Below, one piece after another: positions 1-3,920 of a stretch of 64,000 bases of DNA; positions within the stretch are counted from its first letter, which is position 1, and each line of letters starts with the position of its first letter. Below the pieces are notes generated by a model, which ran no database searches, was not told the origin of the DNA, and saw only the letters and a list, made by a program, of their open reading frames with translations. The DNA comes from Patescibacteria group bacterium (lineage in GTDB: Bacteria > Patescibacteriota > Microgenomatia > UM-FILTER-40-11). Location of the stretch: the NCBI GenBank assembly GCA_035530075.1, contig DATKVM010000002.1:103348-167347 (forward strand), read 5' to 3'. The position numbers and the translations under genes were made by a program.

Positions 1-63
1 GCCGGTTGACTGGGCCACCCCGCCTAAGGTTTCAAAAACATCAGAAACTACTTGTTTCGGCAT
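1..63 (-). CDS. 5' end of an unidentified CDS running off the window (MPKQVVSDVFETLGGVAQST...)
   Basis: ATG at 63..61 on the minus strand opens a frame with no stop before the window edge. Only 21 codons are visible and no family could be recognised. Confidence 0.25.
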   Translation of the reverse strand, partial: MPKQVVSDVFETLGGVAQSTG

Positions 64-80
64 ATTTTATCTAGAAACTA

Positions 81-704
81 TTATACCCCGTAGTCTCTCC
101 TTCCTTCCAGCGCCCGCTGCAAAGTCACCTCATCCGCATACTCGACATCCCCGCCAATTGGCAGTCCATGGGCCAGCCGGGTAATCTTGAACTTTGAACC
201 ATGAACCATAAGCTCGCGAAGTTCCTTCGCAATAAACATTGCTGTCGCCTCCCCTTCCATATTAGAATTAGTGGCAAGAATGATTTCACGGATTTCAAGC
301 GGATTTCTGTGGATCCGGCTAATTAACTCTCTTATTTTAATCTCATCCGGACCAATGTTATTTAAAGGAGAGATAGCGCCATGAAGTACATGATAAACGC
401 CATTAAAGCGACCTCCCCGCTCAAAAGCCAAGACATCCAAGGGCTGCTCCACCACGCAAATAATTCCATGGTCGCGGTTTTGAGAAGCACAAAGCGGGCA
501 AGGGTCAGTTTCCGCCACATTAAAACAGAGAGAGCACATAACGGTATTTTTCTTTAGATTGGCCAAAGCAGCCGCAAAATCATCCAGCATTGCCTGGGGA
601 ACATGAAGCAAATAAAAAGTCAACCGTTGGGCGGTTTTCGGACCAATGCCGGGCAGTCTCTCAAACGCTTCGGTTAAATTCTTAATCGCTCTGGGTATCT
701 GCAT
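81..704 (-). CDS. recR: Recombination protein RecR
   Basis: 207 aa. N-terminal HhH (LPGIGPKTAQRL), C4 zinc finger (CSLC...CPLC) and a Toprim/Walker-like region (ILATNSNMEGEATAMFIA). Typical RecR length. Confidence 0.9.
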   Translation of the reverse strand: MQIPRAIKNLTEAFERLPGIGPKTAQRLTFYLLHVPQAMLDDFAAALANLKKNTVMCSLCFNVAETDPCPLCASQNRDHGIICVVEQPLDVLAFERGGRFNGVYHVLHGAISPLNNIGPDEIKIRELISRIHRNPLEIREIILATNSNMEGEATAMFIAKELRELMVHGSKFKITRLAHGLPIGGDVEYADEVTLQRALEGRRDYGV

Positions 705-807
705 AACAAGCTATTTTACTCTAATCAAGGCTGAATTTGAAGCCTTATTTTACCCTAAACGAAGCTGGAATTGAAGAGTTTCCTTAAAGAATTAAGGAAG
801 CCTTTAC

Positions 808-858
808 TCTCCTCCTAAAAGTCCTTGAAGTCCCCCGGACATTTCCTGCAGTTTTATT
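808..858. repeat. Degenerate direct-repeat copy of the ybaB 3' end; the pseudo-copy encodes ...LQEMSGGLQGLLGGE*
   Basis: About 48 bp, around 90% identical to 1673..1722 (ctcc.cctaaaag.ccttgaagtcccccggacatttc.tg.agtttt). Lies in the intergenic region between recR and the 945..1655 gene. Confidence 0.6.
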
Positions 859-944
859 TCTGCAAAGTCTCTCCTTATAAAATCACTCATTCGCAATTTT
901 GACTTATATGCTATAATGCTCACAAATATTGCTAAATATTTTCT

Positions 945-1655
945 ATGAGTTGGTTAGAAAGATTCCTAAGAGCCAAAAGAACAAAAGAAGAACAGGCAGT
1001 CGCGGCACAAGAATCTGCTCAATCACTTTCAAAGACTCAAGAAAAAGAAGAGACGGACTTTCTCATCAGATGGATCAGAGAACAGGTTAAACCTCTATTT
1101 GATACGTGGGAAAGACTGGGTTTAGATAATATTTTAAATGATATCCGAGATCATATTTGGCCCGAAGCGCCAATAGAAGCTTCCTATAGTCTCTTTGAGG
1201 GGGAAAATCAAGTTGTTAATCCTTCCTCATTAGCTGATCTACAAAGGGTTACCTCCATCGTTGTCTCTGGCCAAATATGCGGTGTTAGTACACACATTGA
1301 GCATTACTTAGATGGCGATGAAGATACTTCACAAACAACCTTCCCTGTTTTTTCTATCGAATTAATTAAAAATCGGGGAATAATTTCAGTGAGAAGCTCA
1401 CTAAGTCCAGAAATGGAAGTTAAAACCCAGGCAGGGGAAACTAAAAGAGAATTGCAGCGAGCACTTGACGAAGCCTTAACAGAAAAATACATTACCAACG
1501 GAAGACTCCCCAATATCAAAGATTATTCTCGTGTTTCACTAAGTGGTGCTGGATTTGCCCCATTTCCAACTATTGATCCTTCTGTACAAGAAAAAGTAGA
1601 CGAGGCATTGGGCATAATAAAGATTCGTGAATATAGAAGTAAAGCGAAACAGTAA
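945..1655 (+). CDS. Hypothetical protein with no recognisable domain, inserted between ybaB and recR on the opposite strand
   Basis: 236-aa ORF filling the gap, with a charged, helical-looking N-terminus. Bounded by the duplicated ybaB 3'-end repeats. Confidence 0.45.
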   Translation: MSWLERFLRAKRTKEEQAVAAQESAQSLSKTQEKEETDFLIRWIREQVKPLFDTWERLGLDNILNDIRDHIWPEAPIEASYSLFEGENQVVNPSSLADLQRVTSIVVSGQICGVSTHIEHYLDGDEDTSQTTFPVFSIELIKNRGIISVRSSLSPEMEVKTQAGETKRELQRALDEALTEKYITNGRLPNIKDYSRVSLSGAGFAPFPTIDPSVQEKVDEALGIIKIREYRSKAKQ

Positions 1656-1658
1656 AGC

Positions 1659-1940
1659 TTATTCTCCACCTAAAAGCCCTTGAAGTCCCCCGGACATTTC
1701 TTGAAGTTTTTTGGCCGCTGTTTCTTGCGACTGTTTTATCGCTTTATTGAGTTTATCTTTAATTAAATCGTTTTTAATGCCCTGGATTTCAAATTCCAAA
1801 ATTTTCTGGTCACCGGAAATGACAATATGGACCCCGTCTTCATCAAGCTCAATTTTTTCCTGACTAAGCTGTTTTTGAATCGCCATGGCCTGATCCCGCA
1901 TCTTTTTCAAATCTCCTAAAGATTTAAATGGATTATTCAT
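1659..1940 (-). CDS. ybaB: Nucleoid-associated protein YbaB/EbfC
   Basis: 93 aa with the family-typical sequence (GDLKKMRDQAMAIQKQL...VISGDQKILEFEI...KDKL). Sits in the canonical dnaX-ybaB-recR context. Confidence 0.85.
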   Translation of the reverse strand: MNNPFKSLGDLKKMRDQAMAIQKQLSQEKIELDEDGVHIVISGDQKILEFEIQGIKNDLIKDKLNKAIKQSQETAAKKLQEMSGGLQGLLGGE

Positions 1941-3556
1941 TGAACCGTTTCTCCTTCCTTGTTAAAAATTTCTTCGGCGAACTTAATTATATCATCGTCC
2001 TTCCCTTCTGCAACTTTCATCGTCTTTCCCGGTTTAGCCAAATTGACTTCCGATGGAAAATTATCCAAAACCGGCAATGGTTTTACCGGCCGTGAGGCCT
2101 CACTTAAACTGCATTTCAGCTTAATCGGCACCCCTAAAACCTCGCTGGCCACTTTTTCAAAAATCCGGCGGCATTTTTCCGACTCCAATTGATCTTTATG
2201 AAATTTATAAAAGACTTCCAGCATTAGAAAACCACCATCAATTGCCAGCGGCCGGCAAGCTTTTAAAAAGGCTTGAACCGAGTGATTAAGAGGTTTAACT
2301 TTTCCCAAGATTTCCGGCCATTTAACCAAAACACTCTCTAATGTTAATAAGGGCGAAGCCGCACTGGCGGGAATTCTTTCTCCATCAGGTTTTTCTTCCG
2401 CCTTTGCCAAAGCTCCCTTCGGGGAATTCCTGCTCTGGGAATCATTACTTTCATCCCCCGAGAGACTGCCCCGGCCGGACGGGTTGGCCAGGGAAGACCA
2501 TTCAACTACTGCCATTTCCAAAGGCAACGAAGGGATAACTGCCTGACGCAACTCTTGATAAGCGGTATTAAAAAGACTGATAAGCTGGCGAATTTCTTCT
2601 CGGCTAAAACTAAATTTCATTTCTCCTTCATCATCGACCCCAAAATCCGCCAAAAGCAAAGCTCTTAATTTCTCCAGCAATTCTTCCGTTAGGATTTTTA
2701 AATTGGCTCCTTGTTCGGTTGCTCGGCCCAGCCAAAGGAGGGCTTCTTTAATCCCCCCTTCTTCTAATAATTTCAAGAATTCTTCAACTTTAAATTCGGC
2801 TAAAATGCCGGCAGTATTTTTGACTTCCTCCTCAGTTATCTTACCGGCCAGCGCCGCTCTTTCCAAAATCTTAATAGCGTCACGAAAACTCCCGTCCGCG
2901 AGTTTGGCAATCGTCGCCAAAGCCTTTTCTTCATAGTCCAATTTCTCCTCCTCGCATATCTTTTTTAATCTCTCGACGATTTCCGGCCGGTTTGCCCGTT
3001 TAAAATTTATCTGCTGACAACGGGAAACAATCGTTTTGGGGAGTTTCTCCGGATCAGTAGTGCAAATAATAAAAAGAGCGTGAGCCGGCGGTTCTTCCAA
3101 AGTCTTTAAAAGAGCGTTAAAGGCTTCGGTCGTTAGCATATGGACTTCATCAATAATATAGACCTTATATTTTGCCCTCGCCGGCGCCAGCCTAATTTTT
3201 TCCCGCAGTTCTTTAATATCGTCAATTCCCCGGTTACTGGCGGCATCAATCTCTAAAACATCAATATTTGTTCCGTTGGTTATCGAAATACAAGAATCGC
3301 ACTGGTTACACGGCTCAAAGGTCTTCTCTCCCTGTGATACTTTTGATGCTTCTGATACCTTTGATACCTTCTCACAGTTCACTGCTTTCGCCACAATTCT
3401 GGCCGCTGAAGTTTTACCAATCCCCCGGGGGCCAGTGAATAAAAAGGCATGAGGAAACTGGCTGGAGCGGAAAATCTTAATCAGTTCCTCTCTAACAGCG
3501 CTACTGTCCAGTTCCTGGAAACTCTGAGGCCGGTATTTGAGATATAGAGTCGTCAC
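1937..3556 (-). CDS. dnaX: DNA polymerase III subunit gamma/tau
   Basis: N-terminal YRPQSF, Walker A GPRGIGKTS, DExx IIDEVHML, SRC motif and a zinc-module (CEK...CNQCDSC). The zinc module is interrupted by a KVSKVSEASKVSQ low-complexity insert encoded by a GATACNTTT repeat. Confidence 0.9.
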   Translation of the reverse strand: MTTLYLKYRPQSFQELDSSAVREELIKIFRSSQFPHAFLFTGPRGIGKTSAARIVAKAVNCEKVSKVSEASKVSQGEKTFEPCNQCDSCISITNGTNIDVLEIDAASNRGIDDIKELREKIRLAPARAKYKVYIIDEVHMLTTEAFNALLKTLEEPPAHALFIICTTDPEKLPKTIVSRCQQINFKRANRPEIVERLKKICEEEKLDYEEKALATIAKLADGSFRDAIKILERAALAGKITEEEVKNTAGILAEFKVEEFLKLLEEGGIKEALLWLGRATEQGANLKILTEELLEKLRALLLADFGVDDEGEMKFSFSREEIRQLISLFNTAYQELRQAVIPSLPLEMAVVEWSSLANPSGRGSLSGDESNDSQSRNSPKGALAKAEEKPDGERIPASAASPLLTLESVLVKWPEILGKVKPLNHSVQAFLKACRPLAIDGGFLMLEVFYKFHKDQLESEKCRRIFEKVASEVLGVPIKLKCSLSEASRPVKPLPVLDNFPSEVNLAKPGKTMKVAEGKDDDIIKFAEEIFNKEGETVQ

Positions 3557-3920
3557 TTTGATGTTTACCCAATAAATTACTTAAGCCATGAATAAGAAGC
3601 TTGTCAATCGCCTCATCCATGGACAAATTATCCTCTTGAGCAATTAACCGCGCTTCCGGATAAGAAATAACAATGTCTCCAATTCGCAATATTCCGCTAA
3701 TATCGCGCGGCTCTTCAAGAGCAAAGGTTAAAACCGTCGTCGGTTCGTCCAAGTTGCGCCATTTCCGGTTCAAACTCCGAATTTTTCGCGAACCAACGAT
3801 GGCAACTGAAATCTCCGCGTCTTCAATCGCTAAACTTTTAAGGTAATTCAGAACCGTCTTTTTAATCCGAGGGCGGCTCACCGGATAACGCGACTCTGAA
3901 GAGATTAAAACGAAATTCAT
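3501..3920 (-). CDS. ybeY: YbeY-like endoribonuclease with a non-canonical metal site
   Basis: AEISVAIVGSRKIRSLNRKWRNLDEPTTVLTFALEE and IGDIVISYP align to YbeY. The His triad region reads IHGLSNLLGKHQ instead of HGxLHLxGYDH. The 3' end overlaps the dnaX start by 56 nt. Confidence 0.55.
   Translation of the reverse strand: MNFVLISSESRYPVSRPRIKKTVLNYLKSLAIEDAEISVAIVGSRKIRSLNRKWRNLDEPTTVLTFALEEPRDISGILRIGDIVISYPEARLIAQEDNLSMDEAIDKLLIHGLSNLLGKHQSDDSISQIPASEFPGTGQ

What the first reader, a model, noticed from the sequence alone, without database searches (positions are those of the whole stretch)
808..1722. Gene inserted into the conserved ybaB-recR junction, flanked by an ~48-bp direct duplication of the ybaB 3' end
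dnaX-ybaB-recR is normally contiguous. Here a 236-aa hypothetical gene (945..1655, opposite strand) sits between ybaB and recR. The last ~15 codons plus stop of ybaB (LQEMSGGLQGLLGGE*) are present twice, as the functional copy at 1673..1722 and a slightly diverged pseudo-copy at 808..858 next to recR. Direct repeats of the target flanking an ~860-bp insert are the signature of a recombinational insertion or target-site duplication of a small cassette.
Basis: seen in the sequence. Interest (0 to 1): 0.5.

Follow-up and report, generated by a model that had tools for sequence, protein, structure and literature searches.

The report
Orphan gene inserted between ybaB and recR
In one uncultured Patescibacteria species, an orphan gene of unknown function has been spliced in between the ybaB and recR genes by recombination, leaving a second copy of the ybaB tail; this is a neat but ordinary footprint of gene gain at a variable spot.

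Summary
A 236-aa ORF (945..1655, +) lies between ybaB (1659..1940, -) and recR (81..704, -). A 52-nt direct repeat flanks it, at 804-855 and 1659-1710, with 47/52 identity, and it occurs nowhere else in the window. It covers the last 16 ybaB codons plus the stop.

Relatives show this is an insertion. Of 56 Microgenomates-like loci, 29 have ybaB and recR 2-133 bp apart. The other 27 carry unrelated inserts, so the junction is a recurrent variable spot. Only this organism has the tail duplication.

orf236 is an orphan. It has no credible homologue in 5.8 billion protein clusters, no family match and no fold match, but it has a coding signal, low GC3 and its own extended -10 promoter.

There is no transposase, integrase, terminal inverted repeat or second copy. 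All five repeat differences are synonymous third-position changes (P about 0.001), while the non-coding flank has diverged more. The two tails therefore look like orthologous alleles from two lineages.

The best reading is a single-crossover or homology-facilitated integration of DNA from a related lineage, using the ybaB 3' end as the homology. This is inferred and no donor was found. Rivals are a selected 28-aa mini-ORF and a decayed site-specific element. Interest is low to moderate.

The parts
81..704 (-). recR (207 aa)
   Evidence: Pfam RecR_HhH, RecR_ZnF, Toprim_4 and RecR_C. The nearest database relative is 89% identical.
712..776 (-). Two tandem 31-nt promoter-like modules (712-742 and 746-776, period 34 nt, 81% identical), each holding a GTAAAAT -10-like box. 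The proximal box sits about 10 nt upstream of the recR ATG.
   Evidence: The same tandem pair is present in L175. The GTAAAAT box is conserved upstream of recR in L089, L090, L094, L098, L125, L173 and L177. The promoter scan found a -10 TAAAAT at 741->713. Function is inferred.
778..801 (-). Hairpin with a 10-bp stem immediately after the relic ybaB stop codon. It is probably the original 3' hairpin or terminator of the dnaX-ybaB transcript.
   Evidence: The flank CTTCCTTAATTC resembles the sequence after the ybaB stop in L177, L089 and L175.
804..855 (-). Repeat copy A: a relic ybaB 3' end of 16 codons plus stop (KLQEMSGGLQGLLGGE*). It lies in a 28-aa ORF (ATG at 890) or a 39-aa ORF (GTG at 923).
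   Evidence: The region 795-870 aligns to the ybaB tail of L175.
890..917 (+). Promoter-like site for orf236: TTCGCA, 16-nt spacer, TATAAT preceded by TG (extended -10).
   Evidence: 10 of 12 consensus matches. Function is inferred.
945..1655 (+). orf236, an orphan protein-coding gene of 236 aa and unknown function.
   Evidence: Only itself was found among 5.8e9 protein clusters. Among 1.84e9 representatives the only other hit is a weak match to a repetitive protein. No Pfam, PHROG, PADLOC, NCBIfam or PDB match. The codon-usage score is positive only in frame 1, and GC3 is 0.28 against 0.455 +/- 0.073 for the window's genes. AF2 mean pLDDT is 59 and there are no fold matches.
1643..1658 (-). 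Short stretch after the functional ybaB stop (GCTTTACTGTTTC). It resembles the native post-ybaB flank of relatives and overlaps the last codons and the stop of orf236.
   Evidence: 9/12 matches to L177 after a 1-nt offset. Suggestive only.
1659..1710 (-). Repeat copy B: the 3' end of the intact ybaB.
1659..1940 (-). ybaB (93 aa, YbaB/EbfC family). It overlaps the dnaX stop by 4 nt.
1937..3556 (-). dnaX (539 aa)
   Evidence: precomputed Pfam DNA_pol3_delta2 and DnaX_C.

Best explanation
About 0.8 kb of foreign DNA has been inserted at the ybaB-recR junction of one Patescibacteria (Microgenomates-like) species. The segment runs from about 856-870 to about 1643-1658 and carries one orphan gene, orf236, with its own extended -10 promoter.

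The insertion used the 3' end of ybaB as the recombination homology. A piece of DNA from a related lineage carried its own ybaB tail next to orf236. It recombined with the resident ybaB tail, either as a Campbell-type single crossover of a circularised fragment or as a homology-facilitated illegitimate event. The result is an intact ybaB (tail copy B), then the insert, then a relic of the last 16 codons plus stop of ybaB (copy A). Copy A is still attached to the original 3' hairpin and to the recR promoter.

recR is tolerant of the split because it has its own promoter close to its ATG. Because both tails came from working ybaB genes of two lineages, they differ only at synonymous sites.

Shown here: the anatomy, the empty sites in relatives, the orphan status and odd composition of orf236, and the synonymous-only divergence. 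Inferred: the recombination route, the related donor, and the view that the relic tail has no function.
For: 1. Empty sites. In the closest relatives ybaB and recR are 8-56 bp apart (L089, L172, L173/174, L093, L094, L098-L100).

2. Homology boundaries. Against the closest relative, L175 (YbaB 96% identical), homology stops exactly at the ybaB stop (1659) and resumes at 776. The stretch 795-870 aligns to L175's ybaB tail.

3. Copy A keeps the native context. It is followed by the post-ybaB flank and hairpin, then by recR upstream sequence shared with L089, L175 and L177.

4. Synonymous-only divergence. All 5 differences between the copies are third-position synonymous changes. P is 0.0006-0.0016 for random substitutions. 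By my calculation from the site counts, P is about 0.007 for an in-place duplication with a neutral relic.

5. The copies are as far apart as orthologues. The synonymous difference between copies (pS 0.44) is in the range seen between this ybaB and other species (0.58-0.96). L177's ybaB tail matches copy A as well as copy B does (47/52). The non-coding flank after the stop is more diverged (7/12 plus an indel) than the coding part (47/52). This is the pattern expected of orthologous alleles.

6. orf236 looks foreign. GC3 is 0.28, which is 2.3 SD below the window's genes. Its codon score ranks 5th lowest of 49. No homologue was found, including none from the same genome.

7. The junction is a recurrent site of gene flux. 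27 of 56 relatives hold unrelated inserts there.

8. Precedent. Single crossover of a circular molecule with partial homology leaves a duplication of the homologous segment flanking the insert (PMC3240628). Natural competence and com genes are reported in Patescibacteria (PMC10633639).
Against: No donor lineage with orf236 next to ybaB was found. orf236 occurs only in this organism.

The homology is short, about 52-67 nt, and 10% diverged, which is a poor substrate for RecA. Classical HFIR usually gives a deletion rather than a duplication.

No reference is close enough to show a mosaic breakpoint in dnaX or ybaB. The nearest RecR is 89% identical.

A relic that is still perfect at the protein level could instead mean it is under selection. 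With only about 11 synonymous sites, the age estimates are very imprecise.
Confidence: 0.5

Rival explanations
1. The ybaB tail was duplicated in place when the insert arrived. The recR-side copy then survived because it is translated as the C-terminus of a small protein (28 aa, MSDFIRRDFAEIKLQEMSGGLQGLLGGE, or 39 aa from a GTG start) that is under purifying selection.
For: There are 0 non-synonymous and 5 synonymous differences. An open frame with an ATG runs into copy A. JGI's gene caller predicted a 28-aa gene at this position in three of the contigs. The YbaB tail is strongly conserved across the clade, so it probably has a function.
Against: There is no Shine-Dalgarno sequence and no promoter-like site on that strand upstream of the ATG. 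No second YbaB-tail motif exists in any of 169 related or other loci. The mini-ORF upstream of the repeat has no similarity to anything. The flank beyond the stop diverged much more than the coding part, which also fits the two-allele model.
Confidence: 0.15
2. This is the remnant of a site-specific integrative element, such as a phage or island, that used the ybaB 3' end as attB and carried a replacement tail as attP. The repeats would be attL and attR, and the integrase was later lost.
For: The insert lies in the 3' end of a gene and that end is restored, as in classic integrative elements. The two copies share an identical 23-nt core.
Against: There is no integrase or recombinase in the insert or within about 6 kb on either side. 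The insert is only about 0.8 kb with one orphan gene. No viral contig carries the tail or orf236. None of the other inserts at this junction has a tail repeat.
Confidence: 0.1
3. orf236 is an old resident of the junction that was lost in relatives, so there was no recent insertion. The tail repeat would be an unrelated old local duplication, like the tandem promoter modules nearby.
For: The junction holds genes in 27 of 56 relatives. Short local duplications do occur here; the 34-nt tandem is shared with L175. The repeat copies are as diverged as orthologues.
Against: orf236 has no homologue in any relative. Its composition is atypical. The closest relatives have either empty sites or different genes. 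An old neutral relic should carry non-synonymous changes and indels.
Confidence: 0.1
4. A transposon or insertion sequence inserted here and generated a target-site duplication.
For: Direct repeats of target sequence flank the insert.
Against: The repeat is 52 nt and 90% identical, whereas known TSDs are 2-15 bp and identical when made (my own knowledge). There is no transposase, there are no terminal inverted repeats and only a single copy exists.
Confidence: 0.02

Closest known systems
Campbell-type single-crossover integration of a circular DNA carrying partial homology (as in suicide-plasmid integration; the duplications seen in PMC3240628)
   Same: The insert is flanked by a direct duplication of the homologous target segment. 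The target gene stays intact. No dedicated recombinase is needed.
   Different: The homology here is very short (about 52-67 nt) and the copies differ by 10%. No circular donor or plasmid backbone is visible. The event is natural and ancient enough to be fixed in the population.
Homology-facilitated illegitimate recombination during natural transformation (Acinetobacter, S. pneumoniae, P. stutzeri; summarised in PMC3240628)
   Same: Foreign DNA about 1 kb long is anchored by one homologous segment. There is an A-rich micro-homology at the other junction (AAAT|AAAACT against CCAA|AAAACT). A competent lineage is plausible (PMC10633639).
   Different: HFIR usually deletes recipient DNA. Here recipient DNA is duplicated.
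Integrative elements that insert into the 3' end of a gene and carry a replacement 3' end (tRNA- or tmRNA-targeting islands and prophages; my own knowledge)
   Same: The 3' end of the target gene is present twice as direct repeats, and the gene remains functional.
   Different: There is no integrase. The insert is tiny. The repeats are diverged outside a 23-nt core. No related element exists elsewhere.
Chromosomal hotspots of gene flux between conserved core genes (known from comparative genomics of many bacteria; my own knowledge)
   Same: The same interval between two core genes holds different, often orphan, genes in different lineages.
   Different: This one is described in ultra-small Patescibacteria genomes at the ybaB-recR junction. 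Most inserts here show no mobility genes.

Membership tests
Insertion sequence / transposon with target-site duplication | Encodes a transposase | tested here: not met
   orf236 has no Pfam, NCBIfam, PHROG or PADLOC hit and no credible homologue.
Insertion sequence / transposon with target-site duplication | Terminal inverted repeats at the ends of the insert | tested here: not met
   Only two internal weak inverted repeats were found, and none lies at the insert ends.
Insertion sequence / transposon with target-site duplication | Short (2-15 bp), initially identical target duplication, and usually more than one copy | tested here: not met
   The repeat is 52 nt and 47/52 identical. It is single-copy in the window and in 178 sequences.
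Integrase-mediated integrative element (attL/attR from a gene's 3' end) | Tyrosine or serine recombinase encoded in or next to the element | tested here: not met
   None in the insert. The neighbours are housekeeping genes or carry no recombinase Pfam hit.
Integrase-mediated integrative element (attL/attR from a gene's 3' end) | Identical core sequence in both att sites | tested here: inconclusive
   An exact 23-nt core is shared (823-845 and 1678-1700), but this is also expected from plain homology.
Integrase-mediated integrative element (attL/attR from a gene's 3' end) | The element or its attP is found free or in other genomes | tested here: not met
   No viral contig or phage record holds orf236 or the tail. 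Plasmids were not searched.
Single-crossover / homology-facilitated recombinational insertion | The insert is flanked by a direct duplication of a segment homologous to the target, and the target gene is left intact | tested here: met
Single-crossover / homology-facilitated recombinational insertion | An uninterrupted (empty) site exists in relatives | tested here: met
   L089, L172, L173/174, L093, L094 and L098-L100.
Single-crossover / homology-facilitated recombinational insertion | An identifiable donor has the inserted gene adjacent to the homologous segment | tested here: not met
   orf236 was found only in this organism.
Single-crossover / homology-facilitated recombinational insertion | The host has DNA uptake and RecA machinery | not tested
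   Known for Saccharibacteria, and com genes are reported across the CPR (PMC10633639). This genome was not examined.
YbaB/EbfC nucleoid-associated protein (for the target gene) | Match to Pfam PF02575 above the gathering score | tested here: met
   30.2 bits against a cut-off of 25.5. There are 1343 homologues, and the tail is conserved.
Integron gene cassette | IntI integrase and an attC imperfect palindrome at the cassette end | tested here: not met
   No integrase. No inverted repeat at the insert ends.

The most novel reading that the evidence does not exclude
The relic is not a relic. The 28-aa mini-ORF would make a free-standing copy of the conserved YbaB C-terminal tail, kept by purifying selection (0 non-synonymous against 5 synonymous changes). 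It could act as a decoy or modulator of whatever the YbaB tail binds. Alternatively, the ybaB tail would be the attachment site of an unrecognised cassette-exchange system, and that would explain why the ybaB-recR junction holds different orphan genes across Microgenomates.
Probability: 0.1. Interest if true: 0.6.

Novelty: new member of a known kind. Interest (0 to 1): 0.25.

Why it matters
This is a clean natural example of how a streamlined, uncultured Patescibacteria genome gains an orphan gene. The junctions are preserved well enough to infer recombination through a short stretch of a core gene rather than a mobile-element mechanism. It also marks the ybaB-recR interval as a recurrent site of gene flux in this clade. 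That could be useful as a neutral insertion site or as a marker for strain typing. It does not reveal a new kind of system.

Tried and rejected
1. Homologues of orf236. I searched by word index, exhaustive HMMER, Pfam, PHROGs, PADLOC and NCBIfam, PDB sequences, viral contigs and phage records, and AF2 plus Foldseek against PDB and BFVD. Nothing was found. The afdb50 library was unavailable. The single hit, P0122 (E 9.5e-11), is a 2439-aa repetitive protein that looks adhesin-like to me. The match is summed over 7 weak repeat stretches, and the pairwise BLASTP E-value is only 0.002 at 24% identity. I treat it as unreliable.

2. A tail duplication in other genomes with inserts at this junction. 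None was found; local alignment scores were 14 or less.

3. Homology between the orf236 upstream region and the CorA promoter region of L090/L092. I thought I saw this by eye, but MAFFT did not support it. I dropped it as similarity between promoter consensus sequences.

4. Extension of the repeat upstream of 855. The next 15 nt match at 7-8/15, which is not distinguishable from chance.

5. Polarity of the event, that is, which tail is resident. Both copies are about equally distant from all relatives, so this is unresolved.

6. Population variants. There is no SNP at positions 1-3135 in 8 assemblies, so polymorphism gives no information.

7. Rfam and tRNA searches around the site found nothing.

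8. The GTDB genome scan with DnaX returned only distant relatives, 37% identity or less.

Full report
**What is there**

On the minus strand the window carries dnaX (1937..3556), ybaB (1659..1940, overlapping dnaX by 4 nt) and recR (81..704). Between ybaB and recR, on the plus strand, lies a 236-codon ORF at 945..1655. Pfam confirms YbaB (PF02575, 30.2 bits against a cut-off of 25.5) and RecR (HhH, Zn-finger, Toprim and C-terminal domains). Neither orf236 nor the small ORF over the repeat has a family match.

The repeat finder reports one direct repeat of 52 nt, at 804-855 and 1659-1710, with 47/52 identity and 855-nt spacing. An exact 23-nt core occurs only at these two places in 64 kb, and 100 shuffles gave none. 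Both copies read KLQEMSGGLQGLLGGE-stop on the minus strand.

The same arrangement is 99.8-100% identical in eight contigs from independent ENA, JGI and Logan assemblies, so it is not an assembly artefact. No SNP falls in positions 1-3135.

**Who it is and what relatives look like**

A source labels the YbaB and RecR proteins as coming from a Patescibacteria group MAG. The closest named relatives are Microgenomates and Shapirobacteria. The next RecR in 5.8 billion protein clusters is only 89% identical, so there is no very close sister genome.

I collected 80 metagenome loci with a YbaB relative, plus contigs for the nearest YbaB and RecR proteins. In 56 of the loci, both genes are present on the same strand:
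- 29 have ybaB and recR 2-133 bp apart.
- 27 have 0.7-4.2 kb between them.

Among the nearest relatives the picture is as follows:
- L089, L172, L173/174, L093, L094 and L098-L100 are empty sites (8-56 bp).
- L090, L091 and L092 carry a CorA gene plus a small membrane protein.
- L175, the closest by YbaB at 96% identity, carries two small membrane-protein genes.

Further out, the junction holds PRPP synthetase, AdoHcy hydrolase, a SAM hydroxide adenosyltransferase-like gene, a PaaX-like gene and several orphans.

So dnaX-ybaB-recR is often contiguous, but in this clade the ybaB-recR interval is a recurrent place of gene gain. None of these other inserts is flanked by a ybaB-tail copy. No second YbaB-tail motif exists in any of the 169 other sequences held.

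**Boundaries of the insert**

Against L175, nucleotide homology runs through dnaX and ybaB, stops exactly at the ybaB stop codon (1659) and resumes at 776. The stretch 795-870 aligns to L175's ybaB tail.

Copy A is followed by a hairpin with a 10-bp stem (778-801). It is also followed by a flank (CTTCCTTAATTC) that resembles the sequence after the ybaB stop in L177, L089 and L175. Next come recR upstream sequences that are nearly identical to those of L089 and L177. Copy A is therefore the original ybaB end in its original context.

Copy B is also followed by a short stretch (GCTTTACTGTTTC) resembling that native flank, with 9/12 matches to L177. This is suggestive only. If real, the duplicated unit is about 67 nt, and the last codons and stop of orf236 are read from ybaB-flank sequence. 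The two convergent stop codons are only 3 nt apart.

**Why recR tolerates the split**

A GTAAAAT -10-like box lies about 10 nt upstream of the recR ATG and is conserved in the relatives. In the window and in L175 this module is tandemly duplicated with a 34-nt period. recR probably has its own promoter; this is inferred.

**The inserted gene**

orf236 is a real coding frame. A codon-usage log-odds trained on the other 48 long ORFs of the window is positive only in frame 1 (+0.16, against -0.29 to -0.81 in the other five frames). It is atypical in composition: GC 0.395 and GC3 0.28, against 0.46 and 0.455 +/- 0.073 for the window's genes. Its codon score is the 5th lowest of 49.

A promoter-like site (TTCGCA, 16-nt spacer, TG-extended TATAAT) lies at 890-917.

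It has no homologue:
- Only itself was found in the word-indexed search of 5.8e9 clusters.
- The exhaustive search of 1.84e9 representatives gave one extra hit, to a 2439-aa repetitive protein. That match is summed over seven weak repeat stretches, and pairwise BLASTP gives E = 0.002 at 24% identity. I regard it as unreliable.
- There is no PHROG, PADLOC, NCBIfam or PDB match, and nothing in viral contigs or phage records.
- A single-sequence AF2 model has mean pLDDT 59 and pTM 0.52. It shows a long N-terminal helix followed by a beta sheet, and it has no significant fold match.

The function is unknown.

**The informative detail: how the two tails differ**

All five differences fall on third codon positions and are synonymous, and the stop codon is kept. 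If five substitutions fell at random on the 51 coding bases, the chance of this is 0.0006-0.0016.

Suppose the duplication arose in place, the functional copy accepted only synonymous changes and the relic drifted neutrally. Using the site counts, I estimate the chance at about 0.007.

The synonymous difference between the copies (pS 0.44, about 11 synonymous sites) is of the order seen between this ybaB and the ybaB of other species (0.58-0.96). The ybaB tail of another species, L177, matches copy A as well as copy B does (47/52). The non-coding flank after the stop is much more diverged between the copies (7/12 plus a 2-nt indel) than the coding part.

This is how two orthologous alleles look. 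It is not how a fresh target duplication or a decaying pseudo-copy looks.

**Mechanism**

Transposition is excluded in practice. There is no transposase, there are no terminal inverted repeats, the element is single-copy, and the repeat is far too long and diverged.

A site-specific integrative element is not supported. There is no integrase in the insert or within about 6 kb. No viral contig carries the tail or the gene. The other inserts at the junction have no tail repeat.

The structure matches integration through homology: an intact target gene, then the insert, then a direct repeat of the homologous segment. In E. coli, a circular molecule carrying part of lacZ integrates by single crossover and leaves a duplication of the homologous part around the insert. 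Classical homology-facilitated illegitimate recombination anchors about 1 kb of foreign DNA with one homologous arm and a micro-homology, but usually deletes recipient DNA (PMC3240628). Saccharibacteria are naturally competent, and com genes are reported across the CPR (PMC10633639).

I therefore propose that DNA from a related lineage recombined with the resident ybaB tail. In that lineage orf236 sat just downstream of ybaB, at the same hotspot. The copy-A junction has an A-rich micro-homology (…GAAAT|AAAACT against …GCCAA|AAAACT).

The route and the donor are inferred. No donor was found, the homology is short, and I could not determine which tail is resident.

**Rivals**

The main rival is that copy A is kept because it is translated as a 28-aa peptide (ATG at 890) or a 39-aa peptide. 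This would also explain the absence of non-synonymous changes, and JGI's gene caller predicted such a 28-aa gene. Against it, there is no ribosome-binding site or promoter-like site on that strand. There is also no similar mini-gene in any relative.

An ancient resident gene lost elsewhere is unlikely, given the orphan status and composition of orf236 and the different contents of the nearest relatives.

**Verdict**

This is a recombinational insertion, not a transposon-type target-site duplication. It is an ordinary kind of event, lineage-specific gene gain at a variable interval between core genes, preserved in unusually readable form in a Patescibacteria genome. Interest is low to moderate.

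Noticed in passing
L089-L177 (ybaB-recR interval in relatives): The ybaB-recR junction is a recurrent variable spot in this Microgenomates-like clade. 27 of 56 loci carry unrelated inserts of 0.7-4.2 kb: CorA plus a small membrane protein, PRPP synthetase, AdoHcy hydrolase, a SAM hydroxide adenosyltransferase-like gene, a PaaX-like gene and several orphans with no Pfam hit.
   Followed up: partly
window 712-776; L175 3928-3992: A 31-nt module holding a GTAAAAT -10-like box is tandemly duplicated (period 34 nt, 81-84% identity) just upstream of recR, in both the window and L175. The proximal box lies only about 10 nt from the recR ATG and is conserved in relatives. This suggests a leaderless or near-leaderless recR mRNA.
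   Followed up: partly
L175 3130-3170, 3495-3540, 3900-3920: In the closest relative, the two small membrane-protein genes at the junction are each preceded by a near-identical module of about 35 nt (TGCTATAAT..CAGCCGCACRTTAA..GGAG). A third, partial module lies before recR. The cassettes are therefore bracketed by direct repeats of a promoter/leader module, which suggests tandem cassette duplication.
   Followed up: no
L177 118-228: The 111-nt ybaB-recR spacer of this relative contains a run of about 8-nt units (GAAACAAT TGAACAAT GGAACAAT CGAACAAG GTAACAAT). This micro-tandem array is absent from the window.
   Followed up: no
L103 2147-3205; L104 2974-4545 and 5145-6203: Two related loci carry, at the same junction, a 352-aa protein with an N-terminal Cys-rich motif and no Pfam hit. 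L104 also has a 523-aa ORF whose end (..PRKCLGYLTPNE..) looks like a DDE/rve-type transposase from memory; this was not tested. It may be a genuine mobile element using the same spot.
   Followed up: no
window 1653-1661: The stop codons of the convergent orf236 and ybaB are separated by only 3 nt, with no hairpin between them. The two transcripts must overlap or read into each other. The hairpin that presumably ended the dnaX-ybaB transcript now sits 855 nt away, next to the relic tail.
   Followed up: partly
window 3501-3920 vs 1937-3556: The ybeY-like ORF (3501..3920, -) overlaps the 5' end of dnaX by 56 nt. The same overlap is called in relatives (L090, L175).
   Followed up: no
P0122 (2439 aa) vs orf236 residues 105-182: The only non-self hit to orf236 is a weak, repeated match to a motif (H-x-x-x-YLGGGADVL..APTYTIQ) in a giant repetitive protein that looks adhesin-like. 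It is probably spurious, but it is the only lead to the origin of orf236.
   Followed up: partly
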